Assembly: GCA_043228905.1 (NCBI GenBank)
Contig: JBHGNT010000016.1
Location: 9,982,001 to 10,046,000, forward strand
Length of the DNA stretch: 64,000 bases
Reading direction: 5' to 3'
Source: Azolla caroliniana
Lineage: Eukaryota; Plantae; Polypodiophyta
In this document: positions 28,564 through 49,319 of the stretch, piece by piece
How the letters are laid out: the number at the start of each line of letters is the position of its first letter
Numbering within the stretch: position 1 is the first letter of the stretch
Notes under the pieces: generated by a model
Database searches by the model: none
Told to the model about the DNA's origin: nothing
Seen by the model: the letters and a program-made list of their open reading frames with translations, nothing else
Made by a program: the position numbers and the translations under genes

Positions 28564-29445
28564 ATGGCAAATACTCGTAAAACCGCCGCAAAGTTCAGGG
28601 GTATGATTGATAATGAGCCGAGATCACCAACAAATCTTGATTCTAATGCAATGGACAAAATGTTTATGAGTCACTTGATTTCTCTTCAAGAAACCATAAA
28701 CAAGCAAGGTGAAGAGATTAGGACGTTAATGAAAGAGAATACTAAGCTCCAAAGTGTTGTCATTGAGAATGAAAGTCTTAAACAAGTGGTTGCAAAACTT
28801 CAAGAAGAGATTCAAGAATGTAAAAGAGCTTCTTTTGAAACAAATGAGCGCCTTAACAAGATTGAGTTAATGCTTCAGTTAAAGGAAGCATTAAAAGAAG
28901 AAAAATTGGACACGATGAGGCGGGATGTAAGTGAGATGAAAAATGTATGTACAACGAAATCATGGGCCGATGTATGTGGTGGGGATGTGCTATCAAACTC
29001 ATCTAATATGCATGTGATGCATCAAGAGAAGAATATAGAAAGCATAGATGTCCGAGAATTGAAAGAACGTGAACGACGATCAAAGAACATTGTCATCCGT
29101 GGGATTAAAGAAGAGAGTATGGAAACACCCGCATCCCTTGCAAAGGCCATTGGTGAATTTTTTAGCATGCATTATGGGATGTTAGATGTGAATGTATATG
29201 GGGCACACCAAGTTGGGAAACATGGTGTTGCTTGCTCCGGAGAAAGGCTTATTGTATGCACAATGACAGATGATACAAAGCGGCGGATCATACTCGAAAA
29301 TAGTTGGGTATACCTCAAAGGTACACAATGCTTTGTGAGTGAAGATCATACTATCTCACAACAAAATGCTTGTCGTAAAGCATATGAGGAAAGATTGAAA
29401 AATAAGGTTAAGGATGTGCCTAAAGATGGAAATGTAGGCAAATAG
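28564..29445 (+). CDS. LINE-B ORF1 (coiled coil plus RRM-like)
   Basis: Heptad-rich N-terminus, ERERRSKNIVIRGIKE and LKGTQCFVSEDHT, typical of LINE ORF1. Confidence 0.85.
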   Translation: MANTRKTAAKFRGMIDNEPRSPTNLDSNAMDKMFMSHLISLQETINKQGEEIRTLMKENTKLQSVVIENESLKQVVAKLQEEIQECKRASFETNERLNKIELMLQLKEALKEEKLDTMRRDVSEMKNVCTTKSWADVCGGDVLSNSSNMHVMHQEKNIESIDVRELKERERRSKNIVIRGIKEESMETPASLAKAIGEFFSMHYGMLDVNVYGAHQVGKHGVACSGERLIVCTMTDDTKRRIILENSWVYLKGTQCFVSEDHTISQQNACRKAYEERLKNKVKDVPKDGNVGK

Positions 29446-29451
29446 GGACAC

Positions 29452-30591
29452 ATGATCTATGAGACTAACCCACGCCTTTTACGACTATGCTTTTGGAATT
29501 GCAATGGATACCCATGGAATGCGAGATTTGGCATAGAGGAGTTCACCGATGACTCGGATATTACACTTCTTGTTGAAACATGGGAGCATGATACTCAAAG
29601 GATTCAAGGTTTAGGAAACTATAATGTACACTCTTTGATATGGAAGAAAAATCCAAGACAAAGAAGAGGACAAGGAGGGGTGCATTTTTTATTAAGAAGG
29701 AAATAGAGAAATATGTGTCAATCATAAAAAATGATGAAAATAAATGCTACATATGGATCAAAATAGAAACACCTAATGATTTGCCCACTTTTGTAGTTGG
29801 ATGTTACATTCCTCATCAAGGTTCTAACTTTTATGCTTGTTTGGATAAAGATCAACCGTTTGCCAATCTACAAGATGATATTGCTTATTTCAAATCCAAA
29901 GGGCAAGTTATTGTCTTTGGTGATATGAATGCTCGTACAAGAAGTTTCCAACTTGATTCACAAGAATCTTTCATGCCACATATCTCAAGGATGCAAGAGG
30001 ATATGCAAATGTATAACCGCTCTTCTAACGATACAAAAGATCCGGAGGAATTTGGGAAGTTACTCCTACAAATGTGCAATAGTACCGGATTGCTTATTGC
30101 AAATGGTATTTCCTTATGGCCCAACACTAATGGTTTTACATGTAGAAAACACAACGGAAATAGTGTGATTGACTATGTGCTACTTTCCGAAAGTATTTTG
30201 GATCGTATACCTAAATTCTCACTTGGTGAATGGACACCGGAATCTGATCATAGGCCTTTATGTATTGATCTCAAATGTATGCATAAGTTTGATTGTGAGA
30301 AGGCTATTGAAGATAATAAACAACTGCACTTGAGCATGAACCTTAAGTGAGCACCCATGTATTCCAAGATGGTTGAGGATATGTTACAAATGACAAAGAT
30401 ACAACATGGTGCCACACTAGAATGCAAATGGGAAGCTTTCAAGAAAGTCATTCTCTCATGTACAAACAAATGTTTTTCGACCAACCGCATATCTTGGAAA
30501 TGCACCAAGAAACTTAGGAAAAAATGGTTTGATAAAGAATGTCGTGAAGCTCGAAAGTGCCTTATGGTTTTGGATGTAGTTAAGGATAAAA
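29452..30591 (+). pseudogene. LINE-B ORF2 N-terminus (AP endonuclease)
   Basis: WNCNG, LVETW, GQGG, GDMNAR, SVIDYVL, SDHRPL, KWFDKEC. One frameshift and one stop. Confidence 0.9.
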
Positions 30592-31114
30592 GCATGCGAG
30601 TGGAAACACTATTATAGCTAATTAGCTACTAAAATGGCCATAGCTAATTAGCTATTTGTTTAGCTAGTCTTTTTTGTGGGAAAATCAAATATTTGAAAAA
30701 CTAATTTATGAAAAAACTCAAATATTTGAACTTCTGTTTCAGACGTAGTGGAACTTGGGGAATAACACCATCATCTAAGGTCGACTTCAATGTCATCAAT
30801 TGCCTGTTTAGCCTAAGTTTGATTTTGAACGTAGATGTAGCTCCTGCAACAGTAGAAAATCGACATTGCAGATTGAGAGCTACAACACCGAACCCGCTCG
30901 ATCATCGTCTAGGTATGTTTCAGTTACAAAAACCCCAAACATTTGTTTTTTCTTTTTGACTACTGTCTGAACTTTGGTGCCGATTCATATTTCCCCAAAA
31001 TCAAATAGGGCGAAGTCCTTGGAGTCCCATACAAGGATGTCTCGCAGATCAGGGAGTAGCAGCAGGTGTGTTTATATTACTTTTTTTGTGTTTAATCCTG
31101 TCTTTAGTGATAAT

Positions 31115-31620
31115 TGGGGTTTTTGATTACGGTTTTTGTTTATAAATTTCTTATTAGAATTTTTTATTAGGGTTTGTGATTGAAATTTCTGATTAGGGTT
31201 TTTGATTGAAATTTCTGATTAGGGTTTTTTATTATAAATTTCTGATTAGAATTTCTGAATAGGGTTTCTGGTTACAAATTTTGATTACAGATTAGAATTT
31301 CTGATTAGAATTTCTGAATAGGGTTTTTGTTTATAAATTTCTGTTTAGAATTTTTTATTAGGGTTTGTGATTGAAATTTTTGATTAGGGTTTCTGATTGA
31401 AATTTCTGATTAGGGTTTTTGATTATAAATTTTTGATTAGAATTTCTGAATAGGGTTTCTGGTTACAAACTTCTGATTACAAATTTTGATTAGGGTTTCT
31501 GATTTCAAACTTTTGATTACAGATTTTGATTAGGGTTTTTGATTTCAAATTTCTGAATACAAATTATGATTAGGGCTTCTAATTTGTTAAGTTAAAGATT
31601 TTGCACTATTTCTGATTTCT
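31115..31620. repeat. Intronic degenerate array of 11-13-bp units rich in TTAGGGTTT (telo-box)
   Basis: Alternating gattagggttt / gattgaaatttc / gattagaatttc units inside intron 31066-31635. Confidence 0.85.
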
Positions 31621-32973
31621 GAAATTATATTTCAGGTGGTTCGTTCCTCCGTATCCGAGAGTGCTAAACTTTGCAAAATTTTGTGAGACAAAGGAGGACT
31701 TCCACAACACCTATGGTCTGTCACTCGAGGGTGTTGACCCTACTGTCCTAAGTGATAAATTGATCAGTGATGTAGACTGGATGACAGTATATACAGTGCC
31801 TAGAGTCAAAGGCAAGGTCAAGTTGAAGCATGTACGAGCTGACTTGTACGATGACTGCATGAGGCTGCACCAGAAAGTTCATCAGGAGATCCTAGTCAAC
31901 AATGAGTTGTCAGTTTCATTTGCTAGAGCATTTGCATATGAGTACTGCAAAACAACGAAGGAATCCAGAGAGCCTGAAATGTATAGGGTAGCTTGGGCAG
32001 TCTATGGTGAGGCATCGGTAAAAAGATGCCGAAAGATGGGAACCTTGGCAAAAAAAAAAGACAGATTTTGGAGCATGGCAGCTGTTGATGCAACTGCCGA
32101 CTCCCAACAAAACCAGGGGCATACACCAAACCGACACCCAAGGAAAGCCAATGTCGATGATACAGGTGAGACATTGGTTAGTTATATGCTAAAAAATGTC
32201 CATGAAGCCTGTGAGACATTGGCATTTTTTAAGACTGATTTAGAGAAAGCCACAATGGCTTCTGCAATGGAGAGCAAAGTTACTTCCGTTGTTACAACGA
32301 TTAGAAATAAGATTCAGGTAACTATTGTTTTGCTGGTATGTGATTGTGTTATAAATAACTTTAAGGGTAAAATGTGCTAATCAAGAATTATCTGGAATAG
32401 GTTGCGCAACAGGATCTTGAATTAGAGGGGACATTGGATCCCCAGCGTAAAATACAACTGCAAATAGAGATCTAGGTTCTTTCAATGAACTTGGACCTTC
32501 TAGGTGTAAATACTGTTGCAGATTACAATTTGGAAAAGCTTCAAGTAAGTTAACGATTCCTAAGCAAAGTTGGTGTATCTTTCTCAGACAGGAATAATTA
32601 ATCGGTAAATTTCTCTGTTGCTTGAAGGAACAATAGATTCATCAAGAACAGGTAGTTAGTTGCCTTAAGAAGCAGCTACATTTTGTGGAGGGAATGGTAA
32701 GGACCAGACAAGATTTGGACTTGAACATTCTTGCTCCCTTACCAAATGAAGGAGAACCAGAAAATGATTTATTGACAGTTCAAGCACGTTGCATTGCTTG
32801 CGGGTTAGGTGTGGAGGACAAAACTGTGTCTTTGTTGGTTCACCTACAACCATGCAACCACACATACCATCTGCTTTGTTTTCAACATGCCTGTTGAATT
32901 GCTGCATTCTGTTTGGGAGATTGCAATACAACTCTACCAAATGACTGGAGAAAACTAACAGGTATACCATACT

Positions 32974-34014
32974 GTAGCTAATAAGCTTAGTCTTTTCTAA
33001 TTAGCTAAGCCGTAAAAAGTATGGAAACTATTTTGCTGCTATCGTTGTAGCTAATTAGCTACTACCATAGTTGATTAAAGCAGCTAATAGCTATCCTTTT
33101 AGCTAATTAGCTACTGCCATAGTTTACTACATTAGTTAATTAGCTAAGTGGCAGCTAGTTAGCTACTAGCTAATTAGCTATCCTACTGACATCTAATTAG
33201 CTACTGGTAGCTAGTTAGCTACTCATAGCTAATTAGCTAGTACCATAGTTGTGTAAAGTAGCTAATTAGCTATCCTACTAGCTAATTAGCTACTGGCAGC
33301 TAATGAGCTACTAGCTAATTAGCAATCCTAGTAGCTAATTAGCTATGATACTAGCTAATTCGCTAGTGCCATAGTTGTGTAAAAAAGCTAATTAGGTATC
33401 CTACTAGCTAATTAGCTACTGGCAACTAATTAGTTATCCTAGTAGCTAATCAGCTATCCTATTAGCTAATTAGCTATCCTACTAGCTAATTAGTTACTGC
33501 CATAGTTGTGTAAAGTAGCTAATAAGCTATCCTAGTAGCTAATTACCTATCCTACTAGCTAATTAGTTACTGCCATAGTTGTGTAAAGTAGCTAATAAGC
33601 TATCCTAGTAGCTAATTAGCTATTGGCAGCTAATTAGCTATCCTAGTAGCTAATAAGCTATCCTAGCTACTACATAGTTGAGAAAGTAGCTCATTAGCTA
33701 TCATTGTAGCTAATTAGCTATCCTACTAGCTAATTAGCTACTGCCATAGTTGTGTAAAGTAGCTAATAAGCTATCCTAGTAGCTAATTAGCTACTGGCAG
33801 CTAATTAGCTATCCTACTAGCTAATTAGCTATTGCCATAGTTGTGTAAAGTAGCTAATAAGCTATCCTAGCTACTACCATAGTTGAGTAAAGTAGCTAAT
33901 TAGCTATCGTACTAGCTAATTAGCTATCCTAATTAGCTATCGTACTAGCTAATTAGCTATCCTAGCTTCTACCATAGTTTAGTAAAGTAGCTAATTAGCT
34001 ATCCTAAATAGCTG
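32974..34014. repeat. Intronic array of palindromic TAGCTAATTAGCTA motifs
   Basis: Dozens of copies with atcctac/actgccatagttgtgtaaag spacers, inside intron 32962-34028. Confidence 0.95.
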
Positions 34015-36212
34015 CCATGTTATTGTAGAATCTTGTGGATTAAGGACGGCACATGATGTGTCTGGTGCTGATGACGCTGCAATAGATGAGGATACTGCTG
34101 CCAACGTGGCTGAAAGTAAGAGTCCTGCTATCACATCTCCTTCAGATCAGCTCCACCCTATTCTTTTGAAACAGTGTACTGAATTAGGCAACGATGTGAA
34201 ATGCCATGAAATAGTGGAAACAAGTAAAATTGAGTTCACCACAACAATGTTTATGAACACTTGATGCAACATTTCTTTGAATCTCAAGACCTTGATTCCA
34301 ACCCACCGAGCCCAACTACTGAAAATGTCCAAACAGATCCCTCTGTACTTCAAAAGCTAGTTCAAGAAATGACTGATGTGCAATTAGCTGCTGAGGCGAT
34401 GGGAAGGTTGTCGGAGGAGGACACACTTGCACATTGGGTGAAAGAAGCAAGGCTAAATGGAGAACCGACCAGAAAAAGGCTGAAGAACGGGCCACGATCG
34501 GGAACAAGACCAATTACTCGGTCAAGGGGCCCAGACGTAGTGGAGCAAAATACTGTTTAGTTGGATATGATTGTTAGCTTAGGGATTTTGCTAGGGTTTT
34601 ATGAAGTTTTACTATCCTGTTGGACAAGTAAAACCTCATATTGGTTGTTGCTTGATCCACATTATGTAATGGAACTCTATGATGTTTTTCCAAGATAATT
34701 TGAAGAGTGTTGTTCTATGACTGAAACTCTTTGGTGTTCAGGATGTTGTTTTGTGAGTCTGTTAGTTACTTTGTGAGTGTGAATATGTTGGTGTTTTCTG
34801 ATGTTGCAGAGTCTAAAGGGTTTGATTCTATTGCTCGTAAGGCCAATGGCAGTGTGGATACTGTTGATGTTGCAACGTGTTTAAAGGGCCCCATCTTGAA
34901 AGTAGATGTAGCAATTGACACAAGTGATCTGGTCACACAAGTTGATGAAGCATGTTGCACGGATGACTTGGTGTTGCGGGTAGATGTAGCATGTGATACT
35001 AGTGGACTGATATCGAGCAGATCAATAGCTACATGCACTGAGGTAATCCAAGGATTGATAACTAAGTCGACAAAACAAGAGCACCAGAATGTGAAGCCAG
35101 GCCCAACACAGTCGACTAGGGGTTTGAAGAGGAAAGGGACGCCAGTTGTGTTGGCCGAACCTGAGCTGATTGAGATTGATCGTGTCCTACTAGAAAATGG
35201 TGTAACAGCGGCTCAGTTTCAGGAATGGAAACCTAAACCACTAGAAGTCGAAAGAAGAGCCTTGATCTTGGAGCTTGATAAAGTCTTGATGAGTGTGAGA
35301 TATATGCAGCCAAGGAGGGACGCGAATTAGTTTCTAGAGTGGGCTGTGCAATACTTTGATTTGTTTATTTGGAGTGAAAAACCAAAATCAGATGTGTGGA
35401 AGTGTTTAGCAAGATTCTTCCCAAAATGGCGAAGTCGTTTTAAAGGTCAATGGGCACGAGAAAATTGTGAGCAAATGGAAGCTGCAACATTCAAGAGACT
35501 TTCTAATTTTTGGGCTACTTGGCCTGAATATAATGCCGACAACACATTGATTTTAGATACAGAACATTTCCGGCACTACTTCAATATTCGGAGATGCTGT
35601 CTCATTCTACCCGAGGAAATGCATGAACGGTACCTAGTGCAAACAATGAGCTGCCAACTAGGTGCATGGTTGTGGACTCCATACCGAGCTCGATATGCAG
35701 ATAATATATGTAGACTCGTTCCACTGACTAGCAAGAGCTTAATTGTTTATAGGAGATTTGTAGACATTTCCAATGGTAATTTATAAATATGTAAAGAGAT
35801 GACATTATTCAATGAAGAATTTAATTACTTGTTCCCACTGTACTTATCTACTGTGTAATTTGAGGAATATGTTGCAGATTGTTGATTTCATGCTATTGAT
35901 GACTATTTAGCTATTGACAGCTAATTAACTACATTTGTACAGCTAATTAGCTACTGATGACTATTTCGCTATAACTTATAACTTAAAACTTAACAAAAAA
36001 GACATGATTTTATTGAGAAAGAAGCACAGAAAGCAGACTGTATACAAGAAATTGATTCTCAAACGAATTTATTTAATTGTTTTCGCGAAATACATGTTTG
36101 TTTTACAAGAGAACATGGTAATTGCTACTTGTAGCTACAAATTCCATGTCATACTATTGTAAATACATTCATACACATTAGCACCAACAATGTATAAACC
36201 TGAGCAGCTCTT

Positions 36213-39200
36213 CTATTCTGACATTGGGACGTTGATGCACCTGACCAAATGAGAGTACATGTACGCCGCTGGTTTGTCTTCTAGCAGCCTGCACACATAT
36301 TCGTAGTCATCTAGTTTTGCATAAAAAATGCCTTCGATGTAGAATGTCCCGGCAGATACAAAATTTCCCCATACATCTACAATATTCTGCCTTGCACATT
36401 GTTTACTAACCGTGCACTTCAATATATAGAAATCATCACCCTCTGAATTTCCTTCTTCAGCATTTACATCTAAGTTATCCCCAACGTTCAAGACATCACT
36501 CAAAGTATCTCCAAGTCCCTCATATGTGAAGTCAACATTCTGCCCTGTTTCTCCATCAACTGCTTCCTTATCATTCAAAGTGTGATGCTCCCAATTCTGA
36601 ATGTATGCTTTGTTTAGACAATATCTCCAATTTCCCTGCACACAATGGAAGCAAAAACAAGTCAATTCTCTAACCGCAATACAATGACCATCCAACCTGG
36701 AATAACCGCGAACAGCATGCAGAGATCGCAATTCGGGAATTCCTTGGCACTCCCAGGTCTTCTCCCTATTTACTTCATCTATCTTCACTTCCCAAAATTC
36801 ACGTTTGATATCTTGGACTTGTGAGGAATAAACACCTGTTGCACTCGTTGACATATTTGTTCTTAAAAATTCAACTACATGTGATGCACAATTCATGTGC
36901 ACACCATCTGTCTTTAGTTGTTCATGGGTAAGTGCCCGCTTTATAACAGCCCTTGCACCATCATGTTCACCTTTACCATGGCCAGACCCAAAAAAATTCC
37001 ATCTCATCTCCAAACTTGTTATAGCAGGATACCTCCCCACAAAATAAAATGGACGTCGAGCCTTGAATTGTGACGCAGCTCCGTCAGACTAGACCCAATG
37101 TTGAGTAAGCTCCAAACGTTGAGCTAATAACCACTGCCAATGTAACTTAAAACAATGTTGGACGAACAAGGTATCATGCTTCTTATCATCAGAAATAAAG
37201 AAATGAATTACTTTTTTAACATCACCTGAAACTCGAAAATATGTTATGTGCACAAAAATGGTTACCTGAACTGAACACCAATGCATAGATTGAATTTCAT
37301 TCTACTGCTTGAAAGTATAATTCTCTGCGAAATCTACTACTGAGACTACTACATCATCTGGGAAATCAGATATGCAAGTCTTAAACTGATGAGCCTGCCA
37401 TGAATAAATGAAGTTGTGTTTAATGAACTTTCGTAGAGATACTACAAACAGAGACACCAAATCCCTTGGTTTAAGCATCTTCCGAACTAGATCCTTTCTT
37501 TTACACACCTTTCCTTCAAAATTGGTGTTCACTGACTCAAATAACTTCACAGAGATCAATATTTCACTACTCAATTCATTTGGACACCACCTAAATCTAG
37601 TAGGGCCACAATCTTGACATAAACCCATGGCACATTTATGAATATGGAAGATAGGGTCAGTTTCTCTCGGACACAATATTGAATCTAATAAATAACTCAT
37701 GGAAGAGATAACGTGCTCAGATGATTTACACTCCTCTTGTGGGCTTGATCGACAGATTGGGCACCCACATGTGCAAACTGTATTAGTTAGGGATGCGTCA
37801 TGGTGACGTAGTAGATTAACAGAGTCCTTCAGAAAACCCATCTGTACATGGTAAATGCAACAACATGTGTATCAATCCTTTAAGCGTCTCACAAAGTGTG
37901 GCTTCAGAGACTCGAATGTTCGTAGTTGAACTTTGATATTTGGATGCATTCGTTTGAACCTAATAAATAAATCGACCTGCGTAATAAAGGGGAATTAGTT
38001 ATTCTCGTAACTAGCTAACTATCCTAGTAGCTAATTAGCTCTTCTAGTAGCTTATTAGCTATTCTAGTAGCTAATTAGCTATCATGGTAGCTAATTAGCT
38101 GTCCTAGTAGCTAATTAGATGTCCTAGTAGCTAATTACCTATCATGGTAGCTAATTAGCTATTCTAGTAGCTAATTAGCTACTCTAGTAGCTAATTAGCT
38201 GTCATGGTAGCTAATTAGATGTCCTAGTAGCTAATTAGCTTTCCGCTTTCCTAGTAACTAATTAACTATCATGGTAGCTAATTAGCTAGTCTAGTAGCTA
38301 ATTAGCTACATGGTGGCTAATTAGCTGTCCTAGTAGCTAATTAGCTATCATGGTGGCTAATTAGTTGTCCTAGTAGTTAATTAGCTATAATGGTAGCTAA
38401 TTAGCTTTCCTAGTAGCTAATTAGCTGGTAATAATGAAATTAGCTATCCTAGTAGCTAATTAGTTGTCGTGGTAGGTAGTTAGCTATTTGGTAGCTAATT
38501 ATCTGGTAGTAACTAAAATAGCTATTGAGAATAGCTAATTAGCTATCATGGTAGTAGCTATTGAGAGTAGCCAGTTACCTATGTAGTAGTTATCCTAGTA
38601 GCTAACTAAGGTAAATGTAACTGATAAGCTAATTAGCTTTTCTGCTAACTGAGCTAATTAACTTTCCGTGTAGAGTCAACAAATGTTGAGATAAATGTAA
38701 ATACCTGAGGTAAATCAAGAAGATGAATGGGATGCTCCTCATATTGATTTCTTCCAACACGTTTCCTGCATAAATCCTTTTTATTGGGTGAAACCCTACT
38801 CTCATTAGTCCAAAACATTGTGATTACATCCTTGATTTTTCAAATGTTATGGGTGTCATTGGCTTACATCTTGTAGTTAGCTTTAGTAGATTAGTTCCTT
38901 CACCCGAGGAAATTATATGGTTCATTGTATTGTACACTGTTTTTCTACTAACACCAATTACCTTAGATAGCTCACTGATGTTTATATCGTCAACATCACT
39001 ATTAAGTAACATCATTAGACTAGACCTTTTTAAGACAAGATCATCTTCTGACCTGCTCATGGATACGAAACTATTACGAAGATTATTTACTAAAACAGAT
39101 GATATGTTTGCATTAAGACCATCACAATCAACTAAGTCCTTTATCGATGGATCATTACATATTCCATAAAGTACTACCTTCTTTTCTTCATTGCTGATGT

Positions 39201-39456
39201 GCTTGGTTTGAACATGGAAATAGTCTACAACCTTTTTCTGTATGATGGTAGTCGCATTACTTACATTCTCAGCTAAACTATCCTTACCTTTACTGAGTGT
39301 GGCTTTCGTATCCTTCAACAATTGACGATGTTTCCTTTTTTTTTCTGCCCAATAGTTTCGTATGGCTTGTTGTGTCCTGATAGCATCATCCCTATCCTTA
39401 TGATCATTGAGGGGTAATTCTAAACACCCTTCTTCCCCTTCCATTTGGCTGGACAT
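36213..39456 (-). pseudogene. Spliced Sola2-like transposase, inactivated
   Basis: Exons 39456-38705 and 37976-36213. Motifs FESLKPHFV..TCCCIYH, CAMGLCQDC, VDFAENY..QSMHW..FISDDKKHD, SDGAASQFK, FFGSGHGKGEHDG, C-terminal CFCFHC. Three in-frame stops plus a frameshift near 38840. Confidence 0.85.
38010..38660. repeat. Second intronic TAGCTAATTAGCTA array (about 19-bp period)
   Basis: Units such as ctagtagctaattagctat/gtc, inside transposase intron 37977-38704. Confidence 0.95.
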
Positions 39457-39749
39457 ATTAAAACCCTAAATTTCTAGAAAAAAAACAAGTATTTAAGATG
39501 GCTATGGGCTACAACAATACACAAAAATTTTCCACAATACACAAGATTAGACACAACAATACACAAGATAATCAATAGACAAAAAAGTTATTGCAATCCA
39601 AGACCGAACAGTAGAGGAGTTCACTCCGTTGGATCGAACAGTTGAGGAGGCGATCCAGGACCTACCAATGGCGACAACTGAATGTAGAATGTTGTCGTTG
39701 GATGAGTGAACTCCGTCAAATCGAAATGTGGAAGCAATCCAGGATTGGA

Positions 39750-40022
39750 CAGTAGCGGCCCCTGAGTGTAGAGTGGCATAGAGAAGAGAACCCCGTCAGA
39801 TTGAACAACTCTTTGATGATGCTTGGAACGCACAATAGCAGCCCCTGAGTGTAGAGTGGCACAGAGAAGAGAACCCCGTCAGATTGAACAGCTCTTTGAT
39901 GATGCTTGGAACGCACAGTAGCGGCCCCTGAGTGTAGAGTGGCACAGAGAAGAGAACCCCGTCAGATTGAACAACTCTTTGATGATGCTTGGAAAGCATA
40001 GTAGCGGCCCTTGAGTGTAGAT
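39750..40022. repeat. Tandem array, about 3.3 x 83 bp, upstream of the transposase
   Basis: Unit cagtagcggcccctgagtgtagagtggca..agaaccccgtcagattgaaca..gatgatgcttggaacgca. Confidence 0.9.
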
Positions 40023-40730
40023 TGGCGGCAGGTGGACTCGATAGGGTTTAGCAACAGTGGTAGCAACTAACCCACAATACTCAACTAGAGATGGCCTACG
40101 TGATGTGGCAAAGGATCATGCATAATGGACCTAGGAATTTGATATATAATTTATGGTACACATTTATGGTGCACATATCAATTTATGTTGCACATTTATG
40201 GCACTTATTTACATATATAATTAAAACACTCTAGTATTTTCAATGGTAGTTTTTTGCATAGTTAATTTATTAATGATGGCTTTTTACTAAAATGACTATT
40301 TATCAATGGTAGCTTTTTGCATAGCTAATTAGCTATGTCAAGGACATAGCTAATTGTTTCCACTCGCATGCTTTCACCCAATTACCAAAAGCATTTGCAT
40401 GAGTATAAAAGTCTTATTCAAAGAAAGAGAAGAATATGGGTGTCATAACTAGACTCGAACCCATAACCTTTTGTTACACGGGTCGAGACTTTACCATTAG
40501 GTTATGAGTTGTAATTTGAAGGATATTATTTTCATTTAGGTTTTATTAGGAAATTGATGTATATTCCAGATTTCTCTGGAACATTCTAGAAACTTCAGGA
40601 GTATTCCTGAAGACACTATAAAAGGAGGCGCAAGGCATTAGTTCGAACCAAATCGGTTCAACGCCAGTCTTAAGCCTTCTAACTACTGTTGTATATCTTC
40701 CGTCATATAATACATATATCTTTCGCATCA

Positions 40731-40776
<46 letters not shown>

Positions 40777-40911
40777 ACTCATTCCTTCTCTCAAAGTTCG
40801 ACACCTCTCATAGTACTAATCCTTCTCTGTCTTAGTACTATTCCCCAACAATAGTACTAATCCTTCTTTTAGTACTAATTCCTTCTCTGCCTTAATAGAG
40901 TTCCTGACAGT

Positions 40912-40923
40912 TTGAACCGATTT
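40912..40923 (+). promoter_or_regulatory. Self-priming PBS
   Basis: TTGAACCGATTT is the exact reverse complement of AAATCGGTTCAA at 40650-40661, 33 nt downstream of TATAAAA (40617). Confidence 0.8.
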
Positions 40924-40997
40924 TCCCTACTAGTCTCCCTCTTCCTTCTGTCTCTCTCCTTTCCTACTAGTCTCTTATTTCCCTTTTCCTTCATCCC

Positions 40998-42167
40998 ATG
41001 GCCACCGTTAGCGCTGAAGAGTATCAATCCGTTTTCTCGGAATTTCAATGCTTGAAAGAGAAGTTTCATGCTTTGGAACAAGAAAATCAACGCTTGTTGG
41101 GGGATCTTCAGCAAATTTCCTTAGAAAAGCAGCAAACGCAACAACAGCATGGGGAACTTGCGTTACGCGTGCAACAACTCGAAGCAACCATCGTAGCAAT
41201 GCAACAACAAGGGCACGGAGCACAAGGGATTCATAAAGAACCCAAGATTGGCCTTCCCACGAAGTTCGATGGAACGCGATCGCAGTTTAGAGGGTTTCTT
41301 AACCAGGTACGGTTAGTTATTCAAATGCATCCGTCCCGATATCCCACCGATGCATCACGAGTGGGTTTAGTAGGCACGTTGTTAAATGGCTCAGCATTAG
41401 CATGGTTCGCTCCGCTACTAGAAAAGGAATCTCCAGTACTAAATAATTTTGAAGAATTCATAAGTGAGTTTAAAGCATGTTTTGGAGATACTGACAGCAT
41501 AAGGACTGCAATCAACAAAATCCGGCGATTACGCCAAGGTGACCGTCCAGCCTCCGCATATGCTGCAGATTTCCGCCTACTCGCCGCCGATATCCCCTGG
41601 GATGATCAAGCATTGATGGAGCAGTTCCGCTATGGTCTACGCAACGATGTCAAGGATTTACTCTTGACTTTCCCTGAAGAGCCAAAATCATTAACAGAAG
41701 CAATCAGTCGAGCGGTCAGATGTGACAACCGCCTCTTCGAGCGACGTTCGGAACGACAATTTCAGATGCCGAGGGCAAGATCCGAGCCTACCTATGCCTC
41801 AATGGTAGCGAAACCTTTTCAAAGGGAGTCACATAATGCGCCTCCAGTAAGTACTCCAACTCCAATGGAAATTGACACTACACGTCGTCGTGGGCCGCTA
41901 TCGGAGGAGGAAAAGCAACGACGCCGAACAAACCGATTATGCCTTTATTGCGGTGGACCAGGGCATATCGCGATAAACTGTCCCCATAGACCAAGAAGGC
42001 AGGTAAACCAAGTCATTGTTAGTTCTGACTATACTAAACCCGAGTCTATGTCAGTAGGAATCTCTGATAATCCTCATAGTCATAATAGTCCTAATAGTAC
42101 TAATAGTCCGAATCTCGCAAACAAATTTGATGTCCTTAGCCAATTAGAAGAAGAGTTAAACGACTAA
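40998..42167 (+). CDS. gag: Chromovirus Gag (capsid plus CCHC zinc knuckle)
   Basis: EPKIGLPTKFDG, LRQG..ASAYAADF, PTPMEID, CLYCGGPGHIAINC. Confidence 0.95.
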   Translation: MATVSAEEYQSVFSEFQCLKEKFHALEQENQRLLGDLQQISLEKQQTQQQHGELALRVQQLEATIVAMQQQGHGAQGIHKEPKIGLPTKFDGTRSQFRGFLNQVRLVIQMHPSRYPTDASRVGLVGTLLNGSALAWFAPLLEKESPVLNNFEEFISEFKACFGDTDSIRTAINKIRRLRQGDRPASAYAADFRLLAADIPWDDQALMEQFRYGLRNDVKDLLLTFPEEPKSLTEAISRAVRCDNRLFERRSERQFQMPRARSEPTYASMVAKPFQRESHNAPPVSTPTPMEIDTTRRRGPLSEEEKQRRRTNRLCLYCGGPGHIAINCPHRPRRQVNQVIVSSDYTKPESMSVGISDNPHSHNSPNSTNSPNLANKFDVLSQLEEELND

Positions 42168-42207
42168 GTCCAGCCAAAATAGGAGCCGTTTGGTTGGACA
42201 GCCCTAG
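42155..42207 (+). promoter_or_regulatory. -1 frameshift signal: G TTA AAC plus stem-loop/pseudoknot
   Basis: Slippery heptamer 42155-42161, 6-nt spacer, 11-bp stem GTCCAGCCAAA/TTTGGTTGGAC. pol is in the -1 frame. Confidence 0.8.
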
Positions 42208-45200
42208 ATCTGTGCAGCCCATTAGTGGTTCCATTCCCTCTAAGCAAGTTAGTGATGTGTTCGTAGTCCAAGTAGCAGTTAGTACTAAAAGTACCCCTCC
42301 AGTACATACCTTAGCCCTTCTAGATTCCGGAGCTAATTCTTGCTTCATGGATAGGAATTTTGCCCGAGCTCATCAGATATCTCTCAGAAAGCTCCCATGT
42401 CCAGCCTCAGTAGTAGTCATTGATGGTCGTCCCATTGCTTCTGGTAATATCATAGAAGAGTCGGAACCCGTTAATATTGTCCTAGATAACTTAACATGTG
42501 TAGTATCATTTAATATTATTAGTATTCCAGAACATCCCATAGTTTTAGGATTACCATGGTTCGAGTTACATGACCCAGACATAGATTGGAGGACAAGGGA
42601 AATCCGGTTGCGACAAACCCAAGGATCTACCCAGAAGGTTGCAACCATTTCGCTACGTCAGTTGCGTGAGGAAGGGCGCAAGGAGGAAATGTTTCTCTTT
42701 GCAATATCAGTACAACCCTCCAGCACCACCAAAGAGGAGTCCACCGTTCAACTTCCCGAGAAGTATCGTCAGTATGCTGATGTGTTCGATAAAGTACAAG
42801 CCAACACACTTCCTCATCATCGGCCGTACGACTGCGCCATCGACTTACAACCGGGAAAAGAGCCGCCATGGGGGCCGATCTACAATTTGTCACCAACCGA
42901 GCTAGAAGTCCTTCGAGCCTATATAGAGGAGAATTTGGAGAACGGTTTCATTCGGCATTCGAAATCTCCAGCCGGCGCACCCATTTTCTTCGTCAAGAAA
43001 AAAGATGGCTCGCTTCGACTCGTTGTAGATTACCGTGGCTTGAATAAGGTCACAGTAAGAAATAGGTATGCTCTTCCCCTTATCTCAAGTCTTTTAGAAC
43101 GGATCAACGGTGCCAGGTTCTTCACGAAGATCGACTTACGAGGAGCCTATAACCTCGTACGGATCCGACCAGGAGATGAATGGAAGACCGCGTTTCGCAC
43201 CAGATATGGGCACTTCGAGTATACGGTCATGCCGTTCGGACTCACTAATGCGCCGGCAGTCTTCCAGCACATGGCGAATGATATATTTCGAGACCTCTTG
43301 GATGATTTTTTGATCATCTATTTGGATGATCTACTGGTTTATTCAAAGACCCAAGAAGAACATGATTCTCATGTACTATTAGTACTAAAACGACTTCGAG
43401 AACATGGTCTGTATGCAAAGTTAGAGAAATGTAGTTTCGGGTGCAACCAAGTGGAGTTTCTCGGCTATGTCATCTCCTCAGAAGGCATATCTATGGACCC
43501 AGCCAAGGTCAAAACGGTGATAGAATGGCACACTCCGCGTTCGGTGCGGGATGTGCAATGCTTCCTAGGCTTTGCAAATTTCTACCGGAAGTTCATACAA
43601 AATTACTCAAAAATTGTGCTGCCTCTCACACAGCTCACCAGGAAGGGACAATCATTCATTTGGTCTAAAGAGACGGACATGGCTTTCGAGAGTCTTAAGA
43701 AGGCGTTTACATCAGCTCCAATTTTAGGTCATGTGGATCCGGAAAAACCATTCATTATCGAAGCTGATGCATCGGATTTCGCATTGGGGAGCATTCTGTC
43801 ACAACAGGGTAACGACGAGAAGCTACATCCTGTGGCTTTCCACTCCCGTAAGTTTGACGCCGCCGAAATCAACTACGAAATTCATGATAAAGAGCTATTA
43901 GCAATAGTTGATTCTTTTATGCAATGGAGGCATTTCCTGGAGGGATCTCCTCATCAGGTCACTGTATTCAGTGACCACAAGAACCTTGCCTACTTTCAAG
44001 ATGCTCGTGTACTGAATCGACGTCAAGCTCGGTGGGCCCATTTCCTCACACGCTTCGACTTCAAAATTACATATCGTCCGGGGAAGCACCAAGGGAAGGC
44101 AGATGCATTATCACGGCGTTCGTATCTAACACCACGTCCCGGTGAGCCAGCTTTCGATAACCAGAAGCAAGTAATCTTGGGTCCAGCACGACTGCAAGCA
44201 GCACAGATCTTTGACATGCCCGTGGATTCCGACATTACCAATACTATACGTGAGGACTTGAAGACTGACGCTTTCGCCCAAGCTATACTAGCACAAATTG
44301 ACCCCTCTCGAGCGTCATGTTCACAATCACAATCACCAGGTACGGATTATCGGCAATTCAAATACTGTGATGGATTACTCTTCTTTAAAGAACTTTTGTA
44401 TGTTCCTAATGGTTCTTGCCGCCTTCGAGTAGTACAAAACTGCCATGACACATATACAGCAGGACATTTTGGTAGTACTAAAACATTAGATTTAGTACAA
44501 CGATCATTCTGGTGGCCCCGTATGCGACAATTTGTCGAAGATTTTGTTCGGACTTGCGATACATGCTGCAGAGCGAAAATGCCAAGACATCATCCATATG
44601 GTTTATTAGAACCATTACCAATTCCAAGCAAGCCATGGCAATCCATTGCTCTTGACTTCATTACAGATCTTCCAGTCTCTAAGGGATTCAGTGCGATTCT
44701 CACAGTGGTGGATCGATATACGAAGATGGCTCATTTCTTACCATGTACTAAAGAAATATCTAGTGAAGACACCGCCGAAATTGTCATGCGGGAAGTATGT
44801 CGGCATCATGGACTCCCTGATAATATCATCAGCGATCGTGGACCCCAGTTTGTGTCAAAATTCTGGAAGCACCTTTTTAAAATGCTGAAGGTCACTTGTA
44901 ACCTCTCCTCCGGCTACCACCCACAAACCGACGGTCAAGCCGAACGAACAAATCAAACACTGGAGCAGTATCTGCGGTGCTTTCTCAACTATCATCAGAA
45001 TGACTGGGCAGATATTCTTCCGTTCGCCGAATTTGCCTATAATAACGCTATCCACGCATCGACTAAAGTCACGCCATTCTACGCTTATACGGGATATCAT
45101 CCCCGGTGGTGTGTCCTTGAAACCCCAGAAGTGTCCACAAATCCTTGCGCGGAGGATCGTTTGGAGCGGTTACGCAAGATACAAGCGGATTTATCTACTC

Positions 45201-45751
45201 AACTCCAGCAAGCTCAACAATCACACAAGGACTACGCAGATCGTCATCGACTTCCATCCAGTTTTAACATTGGAGATCGGGTGTGGCTGCTACGACGACA
45301 CATCAAGACTACTCGCCCATGTGAGAAGTTGGATTATCGACGATTAGGTCCTTTCCGTATTATCGGGAAGATTAATGATGTCGCTTTTCGTCTCGAGCTA
45401 CCTCCGCAACTTCGGATACACCCGGTGTTTCATAGTTCTCTCCTCGAACCCTATCACGAGAGCACTATCCCAGGACGTACTATACAACCTCCACCTCCTA
45501 TCGAGCTCGAAGATGGACCTGAGTATGAGGTCGCTGCCATCCTCGATTCCAAGATTGTTCGCAACAAGCTCTACTATCTAGTCGATTGGCTAGGATATAG
45601 TCCCAGCGAGCGTACTTGGGAACCGATCGAGAATGTGACCAATGCTCGTGCTCTTCTAGAAGACTTCCATCGACGATATCCCGAGAAACCGGGTCCTCAA
45701 TCCAAAACGACTCGTGAAACTCGTCGTTTTAAAGGGGGGATAGTGTCATAA
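42155..45751 (+). CDS. pol: Chromovirus Pol (PR-RT-RNase H-INT-chromodomain), probably expressed as a Gag-Pol fusion
   Basis: LLDSGA, YLDD, EADASD, H..GHFG..CDTC, DFITDL/SDRG/TDGQAE, GPF, YLVDWLGY..TWEP. The ORF runs a few codons into the 3' LTR. Confidence 0.97.
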   Translation, partial: VKRLSPAKIGAVWLDSPRSVQPISGSIPSKQVSDVFVVQVAVSTKSTPPVHTLALLDSGANSCFMDRNFARAHQISLRKLPCPASVVVIDGRPIASGNIIEESEPVNIVLDNLTCVVSFNIISIPEHPIVLGLPWFELHDPDIDWRTREIRLRQTQGSTQKVATISLRQLREEGRKEEMFLFAISVQPSSTTKEESTVQLPEKYRQYADVFDKVQANTLPHHRPYDCAIDLQPGKEPPWGPIYNLSPTELEVLRAYIEENLENGFIRHSKSPAGAPIFFVKKKDGSLRLVVDYRGLNKVTVRNRYALPLISSLLERINGARFFTKIDLRGAYNLVRIRPGDEWKTAFRTRYGHFEYTVMPFGLTNAPAVFQHMANDIFRDLLDDFLIIYLDDLLVYSKTQEEHDSHVLLVLKRLREHGLYAKLEKCSFGCNQVEFLGYVISSEGISMDPAKVKTVIEWHTPRSVRDVQCFLGFANFYRKFIQNYSKIVLPLTQLTRKGQSFIWSKETDMAFESLKKAFTSAPILGHVDPEKPFIIEADASDFALGSILSQQGNDEKLHPVAFHSRKFDAAEINYEIHDKELLAIVDSFMQWRHFLEGSPHQVTVFSDHKNLAYFQDARVLNRRQARWAHFLTRFDFKITYRPGKHQGKADALSRRSYLTPRPGEPAFDNQKQVILGPARLQAAQIFDMPVDSDITNTIREDLKTDAFAQAILAQIDPSRASCSQSQSPGTDYRQFKYCDGLLFFKELLYVPNGSCRLRVVQNCHDTYTAGHFGSTKTLDLVQRSFWWPRMRQFVEDFVRTCDTCCRAKMPRHHPYGLLEPLPIPSKPWQSIALDFITDLPVSKGFSAILTVVDRYTKMAHFLPCTKEISSEDTAEIVMREVCRHHGLPDNIISDRGPQFVSKFWKHLFKMLKVTCNLSSGYHPQTDGQAERTNQTLEQYLRCFLNYHQNDWADILPFAEFAYNNAIHASTKVTPFYAYTGYHPRWCVLETPEVSTNPCAEDRLERLRKIQADLSTQLQQAQQSHKDYADRHRLPSSFNIGDRVWLLRRHIKTTRPCEKLDYRRLGPFRIIGKINDVAFRLELPPQLRIHPVFHSSLLEPYHESTIPGRTIQPPPPIELEDGPEYEVAAILDSKIVRNKLYYLVDWLGYSPSERTWEPIENVTNARALLEDFHRRYPEKPGPQSKTTRETRRFKGGIVS

Positions 45752-46033
45752 CTAGACTCGAACCCATAACCTTTTGTTACACGGGTCGAGACTTTACCAT
45801 TAGGTTATGAGTTGTAATTTGAAGGATATTATTTTCATTTAGGTTTTATTAGGAAATTGATGTATATTCCAGATTTCTCTGGAACATTCTAGAAACTTCA
45901 GGAGTATTCCTGAAGACACTATAAAAGGAGGCGCAAGGCATTAGTTCGAACCAAATCGGTTCAACGCCAGTCTTAAGCCTTCTAACTACTGTTGTATATC
46001 TTCCGTCATATAATACATATATCTTTCGCATCA

Positions 46034-46087
<54 letters not shown>

Positions 46088-46220
46088 ACTCATTCCTTCT
46101 CTCAAAGTTCGACACCTCTCATAGTACTAATCCTTCTCTGTCTTAGTACTATTCCCCAACAATAGTACTAATCCTTCTTTTAGTACTAATTCCTTCTCTG
46201 CCTTAATAGAGTTCCTGACA

Positions 46221-47935
46221 ATGGGAAGCTACTCAACAATTTATCCAAACGCAAGAGAAAGAACATGCATGTGCTAAATTTTGGGGAAATCTAAAGGGAA
46301 AACGTGTTAAGAGTTATGGTGACTTAACTCTTCACGACTTGTCTATGCATTGTAAGAATTTATATGAGTTATCTCTTGCTGGAAAGATGATGTGTTATGG
46401 TTCTCTTTCACATATGCCTCCTTTCTTTACAATTGAAGATATATGCATAGGACTTAAGAAATTGGCCTCTCGAAAGGCAAGCGATCTTTAATGTATAAAG
46501 GCTAAAATGCTCAAATGGACAGGAAAGGAAGCACATATATGGATAAGTGATATGTTTATGATGCATTGCAACATGGTATGCCATACGATTGGACTACAAA
46601 TTGGATCAAACCTTTACATAAAGGTGGAGATATAAATAATGTAAACAACTATCGAACCATCATGGTTGGCTTATTAATGGCAAAACTATTTGGATGTATA
46701 ATGGAATCAAAGATAAGTGTATGGGCTAAAAAAAGTGGTAAGAGAACCTATGGACAAGCTGGCTTTCGGAAACACCATAGCACCATTGATCACCTTATCA
46801 CCCTTCGAGTATTAATGGAGGAAAGTCGCCTTAGAGGTAAAGGTTTATATTGTTGCTTTGTAGACTTCAAGAAAGCTTTTGATATGGTACCTCGTGAGCA
46901 TCTTTGGAGGTGAATGGAAGAACTTGAGGTGCCAAGTGAATATATGCTTGCAATTTCCCGAATTTATGAGAAGGTTATATGTTGTGTGCGCATGAGAGAT
47001 AAACTTTCAGATTTTTTCAAAAGCACTATTGGTGTTAAGCAAGGATGCCCACTCTCACCAACACTATTTGGTCTATGCATTGATGAATTGGAAGACATGG
47101 TTACCAAGTTTGCAAAGGAAGAATGTGTTGAAGTAGTTGATGTAGTGCTTTTTGCAAATACTTTAGGAGATGCACAAAAGCTTATGAAGGCATTGGAAAA
47201 TTTTTGCATGCATACTAAATTAAGTGTCAATAGCTCTAAAACAAAGATTATGCTTGTGAAGAGCCAAAAAAGAGATAAACCATGCATTATGTACAACAAT
47301 GAGCCACTTGAATGTGTGGAAAGCTTCAAATATCTTGGCCTTGAAGTTCCTTCAAATCATAGATGGAATGAATGTGCTACACGCCGCTTAGAGGTGGGTA
47401 AGTGAGCATATTATGCATTTGAGAACACATGCAATCTTGGAGATATTAAGTGTTGGGTCCTCAAGAAATATCTTTTCGACACTTTGGTTACACTGGTCTT
47501 CTCTATGGGGTGGAAGTATGGGGCGGTAGCATCCCTAAATCTATGTGGAAAGAGTTTGAAAATGTCCAAAAACATTTTCTTACCAAGCTTCTACAAGTTA
47601 AGAAACAAACGTCGTACACCCTCCTCCTCCTTGAGACGGGATCGCTGCCATTGAGATCATGGCCATGGAAAGGGTTGTTGAATACATGCTTAAGGTTCAA
47701 AAAAGTCCCTCNNNNNNNNNNNNNNNNNNNNNNNNNNNNNNNNNNNNNNNNNNNNNNNNNNNNNNNNNNNNNNNNNNNNNNNNNNNNNNNNNNNNNNNNN
47801 NNNNNNNNNNNAGCAGTGGTATCACGCAGAGTACTTCACAACTACAATGTGCACTCTCGATTGCAACATTCATTGGTAAAGTTCTTGAACATCGAGAGTC
47901 ACTACTCACTTTCACACGTATCACGTGAAATGTAA
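46221..47935 (+). pseudogene. LINE-B ORF2 RT and C-terminus (decayed, contains gap)
   Basis: NYRTIMVG, QAGFRK, FVDFKKAFD, GVKQGCPLSPTLF, FKYLG. YADD region partly deleted. Confidence 0.85.
47712..47811. other. Assembly gap (100 N)
   Basis: Run of N. Confidence 1.
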
Positions 47936-48509
47936 TATTTTTGGTCTCATACGTCATATTTGATCTATCTATCTATCTCTCTCTCTCTGTTTTGACCGTT
48001 ACGCGGCCGTCATCTGCTGCCGCCGTCGTCTGCAAGCCGCGCCGCCCTGCCTGTCGCCGCCGTCTGCTGCTGTCGACGACGCCCGCCTGTTGTCGCTGCT
48101 GCTGCTGACGCCGCCGTCGCCTGCTGCCGTCGTCGCCGTCGTCTGCCGGACTGTTTGCCGCCGTCTGCTGCCGCCGTCTCTGTCGTCTGTCGACGGTCGT
48201 CGTCGTCTGCTGCCGCCGTCTGCCGTCTGCCGTCTGCCGACTGTCGCTGTCTGCCGTCACCGTCACCGTTGCCATCTTCTTTCGTCCTACCGTCGTTCTT
48301 GGCGTGTTGTTTGCCGATTGTCGCCGTCCTCGATTCTTGGCGACTTTTATCGTGTGTAGTCGTTGCCCTTCATCGTGGTACTTCACTTACCGGACGACGT
48401 CACCGGCTGAAACAAGCATACATGTGCTTCTACACTCATATCTAGCGCGAAAGACGTCGATGCTCGGCTAAGTTTTTTCTGTCCTTTTGTCTTTTTCTTT
48501 CTTTATCTT

Positions 48510-49313
48510 TTGAATTACAAGATGACTTCTCGACGAAACCATAAGGAAACAAACGAAGAAATTATAAGTAAGGAAGATTTTTTAGATGTCCTTAACCGGT
48601 TCATTAAAATGGAAAAATGGGTGAAAGAAATTGAAGCTGAAAAACAAAAAGACAAGGAAGAAAGAGAATTGCTTATTGCTGAAGTAGCGAAACTTAAGGT
48701 AGATAACGTAAACCTTCGAAAACGAATTAAGGACCTTGAAACATCTAGGGAAGATGGTGAAATATCTTCTCTAGAGGATATTAAGGACGAGATAAAAAAA
48801 GTTAAAGAAGAGGTTAAAAGTGATATGGAACTAACAAAAACTGGGTGGGTTGATGTAGTAAAACGTAATATTAAAAAAGAACTAAAGGACGAAAATATTG
48901 TAAACACTACCCTCGAGGAGGAAAAAATGTGTCAAGCTCGACGCCTAAATGTACGAGTTACTGGGCTCAAGGAAGGGGCATCTCCCGACGAAGATACACA
49001 AACCTTGGGTAAAATGTTGGGATATGAAGCCCTACCAATCACTAAAACTTGGAGGGTAGGGCGTGACACCACTAGGAAAAGAGCTTTAGTTCTTCAATTT
49101 AAGGACTCGGAATCTAGAATCGCCTTTTTTAAAAAGAGACCAATTCTTCGAGGATTGGGCGGGGAGCCCATCTACCTCGATGAAGACTTGACCAAGATGC
49201 AAATTGAGCATCGTAAAACTTGTATGCCGCGAGTCATACAAGCTCGTAAAGAGGGGCATCGTGCCTTCTACCGAGACGGACGGGTCATAATAAATGATCG
49301 CGCTGCCAATTGA
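48510..49313 (+). CDS. LINE-A ORF1 (coiled coil plus RRM-like)
   Basis: RRLNVRVTGLKEG..RALVLQF..IYLDEDLT. First ATG is at 48522. Confidence 0.85.
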   Translation: MNYKMTSRRNHKETNEEIISKEDFLDVLNRFIKMEKWVKEIEAEKQKDKEERELLIAEVAKLKVDNVNLRKRIKDLETSREDGEISSLEDIKDEIKKVKEEVKSDMELTKTGWVDVVKRNIKKELKDENIVNTTLEEEKMCQARRLNVRVTGLKEGASPDEDTQTLGKMLGYEALPITKTWRVGRDTTRKRALVLQFKDSESRIAFFKKRPILRGLGGEPIYLDEDLTKMQIEHRKTCMPRVIQARKEGHRAFYRDGRVIINDRAAN

Positions 49314-49319
49314 CGGCGT

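What the first reader, a model, noticed from the sequence alone, without database searches (positions are those of the whole stretch)
30592..40371. Two-gene Sola2-like DNA transposon carrying a RING-finger / CTD-phosphatase-like accessory gene
Seen: perfect TIRs enclose a spliced transposase (minus) and a convergent multi-exon gene (plus) whose splice phases all fit. That gene encodes an unrecognised N-terminal domain (..NNELSVSFARAFAYE..RVAWAVYG), a RING-H2-like finger, and an FCP1/NIF-like HAD domain whose DxDxT motif reads ELDKV. Established: RING fingers are usually E3 ligases, FCP1-family enzymes act on the Pol II CTD or other phosphoproteins, and some plant DNA transposons encode anti-silencing factors (VANC of VANDAL). 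Inference: this may be a transposon-borne ubiquitin-ligase/pseudophosphatase module that manipulates host silencing or transcription. I know of no described Sola element with this cargo. This copy is inactivated by stops.
Basis: partly seen in the sequence, partly recalled or inferred. Interest (0 to 1): 0.85.

Follow-up and report, generated by a model that had tools for sequence, protein, structure and literature searches.

The report
Fern transposon with RING-pseudophosphatase cargo
This is a broken copy of an abundant cut-and-paste jumping gene, likely from a fern, that carries a conserved second gene (an unknown domain, a RING-type zinc finger and a likely inactive phosphatase) plus rows of one DNA palindrome, which that protein likely binds and would use to keep its own element active.

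Summary
The element is real. It is a dead copy of a young, high-copy Sola2-type DNA transposon: 552 exact TIR matches, 4-bp target duplications in 22 of 22 TIR-picked copies, and 7 of 52 copies intact in both genes (99.2-99.6% alike). The cargo is fixed, not incidental: its first domain is in 22 of 22 TIR-picked copies, and dN/dS is 0.34-0.41 against older subfamilies (transposase 0.25-0.37). The same order (unknown domain, coiled coil, RING-H2-like finger, NIF domain) recurs in a dispersed repeat of Adiantum. Corrections: the family TIR is 25 bp; this copy ends at 40379 and has lost its left tip. The join to the NIF exon does not fit with the full fifth exon, so NIF is a splice variant or a separate gene. 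New: a 14-bp palindrome forms arrays in both genes' introns and sits beside both TIRs (28 exact copies inside, 0 in the other 54 kb), as in VANDAL/VANC. Binding, ubiquitin-ligase activity and anti-silencing are untested, and the mutation record shows no demethylation near the arrays. The scan noted this family before on other DNA of this genome (e1-10618503).

The parts
30591..40379 (.). Whole element (dead copy; 97.6% to the family majority over coding exons), inserted in a LINE
30591..30608 (+). Left TIR remnant; the first 7 bases and the left target duplication are lost (boundary uncertain by 4 bases of microhomology)
40355..40379 (-). Right TIR, 25 bp, intact
40380..40383 (+). Surviving copy of the 4-bp target duplication (AATT)
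   Evidence: empty LINE site in 7 of 7 copies
30615..30654 (.). Two subterminal copies of the 14-bp palindrome TAGCTAATTAGCTA
31037..31065 (+). Cargo exon 1 (predicted start)
31636..32317 (+). Cargo exon 2: unnamed helical domain (about residues 12-146) with two basic segments, then the start of a coiled coil
32401..32544 (+). Cargo exon 3 (coiled-coil region), one stop in this copy
32628..32961 (+). Cargo exon 4 with the C3H2C3 RING-H2-like finger, two stops in this copy
33048..34001 (.). Palindrome array in cargo intron 4 (18 exact copies; 34 with at most one mismatch)
34029..34560 (+). Cargo exon 5: acidic linker with a basic, NLS-like end; likely terminal exon of a 567-575 aa product; conserved internal phase-1 donor at 34116; frameshifted in this copy
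34785..35786 (+). NIF/FCP1-like frame: in-frame ATG at 34785, acceptor before 34810, ELDKV at 35271; one stop in this copy; either spliced to the upstream exons or a separate gene
36135..37976 (-). Transposase exon 2 with the DDD triad (DFAENY ~37334, SDG ~37085, HDG ~36962), four stops
38028..38545 (.). Palindrome array in the transposase intron (7 exact copies; 16 with at most one mismatch)
38705..39456 (-). Transposase exon 1 with a weak HTH match (HTH_11, E 1e-4, below cut-off), frameshifted
40322..40335 (.). Subterminal palindrome beside the right TIR

Best explanation
A Sola2-type transposon carries a fixed, selected second gene whose protein likely binds the element's own 14-bp palindrome and would thereby keep the element transcribed and mobile. 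Shown: the element, its TIRs and target duplications, the cargo's presence and conservation, its domain order, the degenerate NIF motif and the arrays. Inferred: the basic N-terminal domain reads the palindrome as a coiled-coil dimer; this tethers the RING finger, and a catalytically dead NIF domain (fused by alternative splicing or made separately), to the large introns of both genes and to both ends; there the RING would ubiquitinate or displace a host chromatin factor and the NIF would act as a phosphoprotein-binding decoy or scaffold, possibly for the Pol II tail.
For: Cargo exon 2 is in 22 of 22 TIR-picked elements, and at least 4 of 5 main exons are in 14 of 22; the rest are internal deletions. 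NG86 dN/dS against three older subfamilies: exon 2 0.21-0.26, whole cargo 0.34-0.41, transposase 0.25-0.37; 0 of 1000 shuffles reach the observed amino-acid identity for exon 2, the NIF exon or the whole cargo; singleton baseline about 0.6. 136 homologues of the first domain; 4 of 35 that are 400 aa or longer hold all three domains and 9 more hold two. The 15 of 29 looked-up homologues that carry a species name are all Adiantum. The model is confident (pLDDT 90); two segments are net basic in 47 of 47 and 46 of 47 homologues. The palindrome has 28 exact copies in the element and 0 in the other 54,204 bases; full-length TIR-picked copies hold 35-65; the commonest spacing is 20 bp. VANC targets likewise lie in tandem repeats in introns and ends (PMC5735166).
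Against: No binding, expression or methylome data. C-to-T decay at CG/CHG is 4-5 times that at CHH and is no lower within 300 bp of the arrays (CG 17.2 vs 15.7, CHG 16.4 vs 16.5 per 1000), so there is no trace of VANC-like local demethylation; most copies are dead and probably silent, so the test is weak. Palindromes also abut both TIRs, the usual place for transposase or cofactor sites (recalled). The finger scores below Pfam cut-offs and lacks the usual E2-contact Trp and the basic residue after the last Cys (recalled features). The NIF exon is only moderately constrained (0.27-0.53). For the Adiantum cargo no link to a Sola2 transposase or to arrays could be seen (no transposase hit among 198 protein ids scanned).
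Confidence: 0.4

Rival explanations
1. The cargo is a cofactor of the cut-and-paste reaction: it binds the subterminal palindromes and/or the transposase, like the Harbinger Myb protein, En/Spm TnpA or MURB, and the internal arrays are amplified loading sites or by-products.
For: Palindromes lie 6 bp inside the left TIR and about 20 bp inside the right one. The cargo is always with the element. MURA-MURB contact is reported in PMC12973397 (passages). TnpA and Myb roles are recalled.
Against: Animal and amoebozoan Sola2 transposases share the same catalytic core, and no cofactor is mentioned in the passages read. RING and NIF have no evident role in strand transfer. 25 of the 28 exact palindromes are in introns, far from the ends.
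Confidence: 0.25
2. The palindromes are transposase sites or mere tandem expansions, and the cargo acts in trans on host proteins (a general E3 ligase or phosphatase decoy against silencing), with no DNA address. This is.
For: The transposase has its own HTH-like segment. No local methylation footprint. The first domain has no match to a known DNA-binding family.
Against: Conserved basic segments in the first domain. PMC12973397 states that broad anti-silencing is rare in plants (passage). The E2-binding face is non-canonical (recalled).
Confidence: 0.25
3. The second gene is a neutrally carried host fragment (Pack-type capture).
For: The NIF domain is nearest to a DLNG-type host gene of this genome. 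Exon 5 is weakly constrained in one comparison (0.91).
Against: Purifying selection on all other exons, kept splice sites, fixed presence, and the same multi-domain order in a dispersed Adiantum repeat at about 30% identity.
Confidence: 0.03

Closest known systems
Sola2 DNA transposons (Repbase; alignment in PMC3627910 Additional file 10, part 1 of 2 read)
   Same: DFAENY..QxEIQSxHW, ISDD..HD, SDGAAxQFK and WNFF..xHGKG..DG motifs; 4-bp target duplications; short TIRs.
   Different: Carries a selected, spliced RING/NIF cargo and internal palindrome arrays. The only Sola2 cargo seen in the papers read is Fanzor1 (PMC3627910, passages).
VANDAL/VANC of Arabidopsis (PMC5735166; abstract and two results sections read)
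   Same: Transposon-encoded accessory protein, and a private motif amplified as dynamic tandem repeats in introns and terminal regions.
   Different: MULE, not Sola. VANC has DUF1985/DUF287, which were not hit here. VANC motifs are 9-bp and non-palindromic. Binding and hypomethylation are shown for VANC and untested here.
Sola1-1_Ec32 of Ectocarpus (PMC12477816, passages) and Plavaka accessory genes PAG1-3 (bioRxiv 10.1101/2025.02.11.637652, passages)
   Same: [quoted passage not shown]
   Different: Their cargo is ParB-like plus methyltransferase, SET or dioxygenase. Here it is an unnamed domain, RING and a NIF pseudophosphatase, with no DNA-modifying domain.
NIF-domain pseudophosphatases with DxNxT-type motif, and Tim50 (PMC13216928, passages)
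   Same: NIF/FCP1 fold family with a broken DxDx(T/V) motif. Adiantum homologues and the nearest host gene read DLNGV.
   Different: Here the motif is ELDKV (nucleophile Asp replaced by Glu), the second acidic motif reads DTEH, the cap insertion is nearly gone, and the domain is transposon-borne.
En/Spm TnpA and Harbinger Myb-like protein (recalled, no paper read)
   Same: Second protein of a two-gene DNA transposon that binds repeated subterminal motifs.
   Different: No sequence or family match; those proteins lack RING and NIF.

Membership tests
Sola2 DNA transposon | DDD transposase with Sola2 motifs | tested here: met
   Motifs compared by eye with the Sola2 alignment; triad located. No profile score was computed.
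Sola2 DNA transposon | 4-bp target site duplication | tested here: met
   22 of 22 TIR-picked copies; 19 of 23 NIF-picked copies with both ends, window included. Criterion from PMC3627910 and PMC10741241.
Sola2 DNA transposon | Short TIRs with 5'-GRG termini (criterion recalled; the original paper is not held) | tested here: met
   25-bp TIR starting GGG.
Sola2 DNA transposon | Placement inside Sola2 on a tree with Repbase members | not testable with these tools
   No Repbase sequences were available as data.
NIF/FCP1 (PF03031) domain | Profile match above the curated cut-off | tested here: met
   29.2 and 34.1 bits vs 21.8.
Active FCP/SCP phosphatase | DxDx(T/V) catalytic motif | tested here: not met
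   ELDKV in 44 of 46 copies and in the 65-70% relative; DLNGV in 42 of 45 motif matches in Adiantum homologues.
NIF/FCP1 (PF03031) domain | HAD fold by structure | tested here: inconclusive
   The model from a 7-sequence alignment had pLDDT 37; it was not searched.
RING-H2 finger | Eight ligands in C3H2C3 order and spacing | tested here: met
   All eight kept in 40 of 47 copies; same pattern in homologues, with 3-4 residues between the last pair.
RING-H2 finger | Pfam RING score above cut-off | tested here: not met
   Best E 0.036 here and 8e-4 in a homologue, both under the curated score.
RING E3 ligase | E2 binding and ubiquitin transfer | not testable with these tools
   Needs an assay; the usual Trp and linchpin residue are absent (recalled features).
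VANC-type anti-silencing system | DUF1985/DUF287 domains in a MULE | tested here: not met
   No such Pfam hit in the cargo exons or among the families listed for 48 aligned homologues; the transposase is Sola2.
VANC-type anti-silencing system | Private motif in tandem arrays in non-coding parts of the element | tested here: met
VANC-type anti-silencing system | Accessory protein binds the motif | not testable with these tools
   No protein-DNA test is available.
VANC-type anti-silencing system | Hypomethylation of the element | tested here: inconclusive
   The mutation spectrum shows no relief near arrays, but it reflects mostly dead copies; no methylome.

The most novel reading that the evidence does not exclude
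Ferns have a widespread, ancient transposon-encoded regulator of a new build: an undescribed DNA-binding domain that reads a palindrome amplified in the element's own introns and delivers a RING ligase and a dead CTD-phosphatase domain there. It would counter silencing through ubiquitin and Pol II phosphorylation state rather than DNA methylation, a convergent alternative to VANC, with alternative splicing switching the pseudophosphatase on or off.
Probability: 0.2. Interest if true: 0.85.

Novelty: new variant of a known kind. Interest (0 to 1): 0.6.

Why it matters
Few transposon accessory proteins are known to defend their own element; one paper read calls VANDAL the only transposon known to bind and modify its own sequence (bioRxiv 10.1101/2025.02.11.637652). 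This family gives a second, unrelated candidate with intact young copies, a defined 14-bp target and a compact domain that models well and has no family, so the test is direct. It also shows that Sola, counted as very rare among active plant transposons (with Ginger, 9 of 3203 clusters; PMC12973397), is abundant and recently active in this genome. Dozens of Adiantum 'hypothetical' NIF gene models are repeat-borne, not host phosphatases.

Tried and rejected
Expression: no RNA holder was listed. Two runs guessed to be RNA gave only short transposase pieces and no splice joints on the window or on an older copy; this is no evidence either way. Dimer prediction for the N-terminal domain plus coil returned 'no answer'. 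Fold searches of the N-domain model found no match with E<=0.001 in PDB or BFVD; the wide search returned only coiled-coil hits to residues 168-227 and barely tested the domain; this does not show a new fold. PDB sequence searches gave nothing useful. The ESM Atlas gave no usable hit twice. The NIF-exon model was too poor to use. A '449-aa open frame' over exons 2-4 was checked and rejected, since introns 2 and 3 hold stops. An early idea of a 6-bp GCATGC duplication was dropped: those bases belong to the TIR. Genome searches with distant queries returned only this family and its older subfamilies, so a cargo-free Sola2 family was not found for comparison. A Plant Mobile Domain identity for the first domain was considered from memory and got no Pfam support. 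The 'shared mutation' dN/dS within young copies is confounded by recurrent CG/CHG hits and is not relied on. The original Sola paper is not held.
Full report
Element and ends. The window lies in a 523-Mb genome, likely of a fern, since every species-named homologue of the cargo is from Adiantum. A 601-bp piece of the NIF exon found 493 candidate places, of which the 40 scored were 97-100% identical. The transposase found 1164 candidates, and most of the 134 scored had a 619-codon open frame. I fetched 30 of the 40 NIF matches. They show a 25-bp TIR starting GGG and a 4-bp duplication in 19 of 23 elements with both ends, the window included. The TIR has 552 exact matches in the genome and the reversed control has 0. 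For a sample not chosen by cargo I took, from the first 100 listed TIR matches, the opposed pairs within 13 kb: 26 pairs, 4 already held, 22 fetched. All 22 have a 4-bp duplication. In the window the right end is 40379. The left tip is damaged: 7 of 7 other copies of the surrounding LINE show the empty site, and 14 bases are missing between two look-alike heptamers, taking the left duplication and 7 TIR bases.

Transposase. Two exons on minus give 863 aa in the family majority. Its motifs match the Sola2 alignment of PMC3627910 Additional file 10 (part 1 of 2 read, compared by eye), and 4-bp duplications are stated for Sola2 and Sola in PMC3627910 and PMC10741241 (passages). The GRG terminus rule is recalled. 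Homologues at 25-93% include a Klebsormidium model. Both genes are open in 4 of 30 plus 3 of 22 copies, and these 7 are 99.2-99.6% alike over 5,240 coding bases, so the family was active recently. The window copy is 97.6% from the majority and has 8 stops and 2 frameshifts.

Cargo gene structure. Exons 1-5 join in phase with conserved GT..AG ends. Introns 2 and 3 are real, as they hold stops and vary in length. The last junction is open. Exon 5 is coding to its end (65% amino-acid identity and dN/dS 0.46-0.47 against metagenome relatives), but it ends in phase 0 while the NIF acceptor is phase 1, and in 7 of 7 older relatives a stop follows at once. A phase-1 donor 87 bases into exon 5 is kept in 7 of 7 relatives and 27 of 28 copies, and a second one at +198 in 5 of 7; an in-frame ATG before the acceptor is also kept. 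So there is likely a 570-aa product without NIF, plus either a spliced isoform with NIF or a separate NIF gene. Adiantum gene models show both read-through and fused predictions at the same spot. No RNA evidence was obtained.

The cargo is fixed and selected. Exon 2 is present in 22 of 22 TIR-picked elements and at least 4 of 5 main exons in 14 of 22; the others are internal deletions. Against three older subfamilies of this genome NG86 dN/dS is 0.21-0.26 (exon 2), 0.17-0.23 (exon 3), 0.30-0.55 (RING exon), 0.57-0.91 (exon 5), 0.27-0.53 (NIF exon) and 0.34-0.41 overall, against 0.25-0.37 for the transposase. 0 of 1000 base-matched shuffles reach the observed identity for exon 2, the NIF exon or the whole cargo. 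Singleton changes give about 0.6 for both genes. The older copies are themselves decayed, which pushes these ratios up.

Domains. The first domain has no Pfam family but 136 homologues at E<=0.001, with a conserved W..VF, VYQ..P.N.E, FA..F and VAWA pattern. It models confidently as a compact helical domain followed by a long helix (pLDDT 90). Two segments are net basic in 47 of 47 and 46 of 47 homologues. The finger has eight C3H2C3 ligands in 40 of 47 copies and is hit at E 1e-18 by a profile of five homologous fingers, but it stays under Pfam's cut-offs and lacks the usual E2-contact residues (recalled). The NIF domain passes Pfam's cut-off. Its motif is ELDKV in 44 of 46 copies and DLNGV in 42 of 45 motif matches in Adiantum. 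Of the two host NIF genes compared from this genome it resembles the DLNG-type one (E 9e-7) and not the canonical DLDETL one. PMC13216928 (passages) classes DxNxT NIF proteins as pseudophosphatases but also notes that human TIMM50 has reported activity despite a broken motif, so 'dead' is likely, not certain.

Range. Of 35 homologues of 400 aa or more, 4 hold all three domains, 7 the first domain and RING, 2 the first domain and NIF, 21 the first domain alone and 1 none at my threshold. A search with one Adiantum NIF region returned 51 A. nelumboides gene models on separate contigs, mostly 90-98% identical, as expected of a dispersed repeat; 8 of 51 match exons 2, 4 and 6 together. Whether those repeats are Sola2 elements could not be seen.

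Palindrome arrays. TAGCTAATTAGCTA occurs 28 times exactly in the element and 0 times in the other 54,204 bases: 18 in cargo intron 4, 7 in the transposase intron, 2 by the left TIR and 1 by the right. Full-length TIR-picked copies have 35-65, the commonest spacing is 20 bp, and array length varies between copies. Older subfamilies and metagenome relatives have the same core. The arrays are poor in CG and CHG (9-11% of C against 25-29% in exons). VANC proteins bind motifs amplified as tandem repeats in introns and ends of their own element (PMC5735166; abstract and two sections), which is the layout seen here. Against an anti-methylation role: C-to-T change at CG/CHG is 4-5 times that at CHH and is no lower within 300 bp of the arrays.

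Mechanism. I commit (0.4) to a self-addressed regulator: the basic first domain, dimerised by the coil, likely binds the palindrome and would bring the RING and a dead NIF domain to the element's introns and ends to keep it transcribed. Each of these steps is inferred. The main rivals are a transposition cofactor (0.25) and a factor that acts in trans with the palindromes serving the transposase (0.25); neutral capture is very unlikely (0.03).

Novelty. Ten full-text searches (seen as listings) showed no paper describing a transposon with this cargo. Sola elements with other cargo are known: ParB-methyltransferase in Sola1-1_Ec32 (PMC12477816, passages) and Fanzor1 in Sola2. I rate this a new variant of a known kind.

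Noticed in passing
window 28880-30590, 40380-40440, 46221-47610: The element sits in a high-copy young LINE (endonuclease frame 29625-30350; 741 candidates, many near-identical over 204 bp), which is split again by an LTR retrotransposon.
   Followed up: partly
window 40441-46220 and 48411-53062: A gag-like frame (40971-42167) and a 1203-aa frame (42140-45751) lie between the LINE halves, likely a Ty3/gypsy element; a similar pair of frames follows at 48411-53062.
   Followed up: no
window 31105-31635 and 39742-40026: Two further tandem arrays inside the element: a 13-bp-period T-rich repeat in cargo intron 1 and three 83-bp units upstream of the transposase.
   Followed up: no
   Followed up: no
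window 34560-34810: The non-coding gap between exon 5 and the NIF exon holds blocks that are better conserved between families than the exons, which suggests a regulatory or splicing signal.
   Followed up: partly
L078:3686-4270: A DLNG-type NIF gene with no transposase or cargo domain within 7 kb, present twice 27 kb apart on C15; likely the host clade from which the cargo domain came.
   Followed up: partly
G000, other pieces (earlier notes): The same genome is noted to hold a Sola1-like family with ParB-methyltransferase cargo and its own palindrome array, so two Sola groups may have separately acquired a protein-plus-array design.
   Followed up: no
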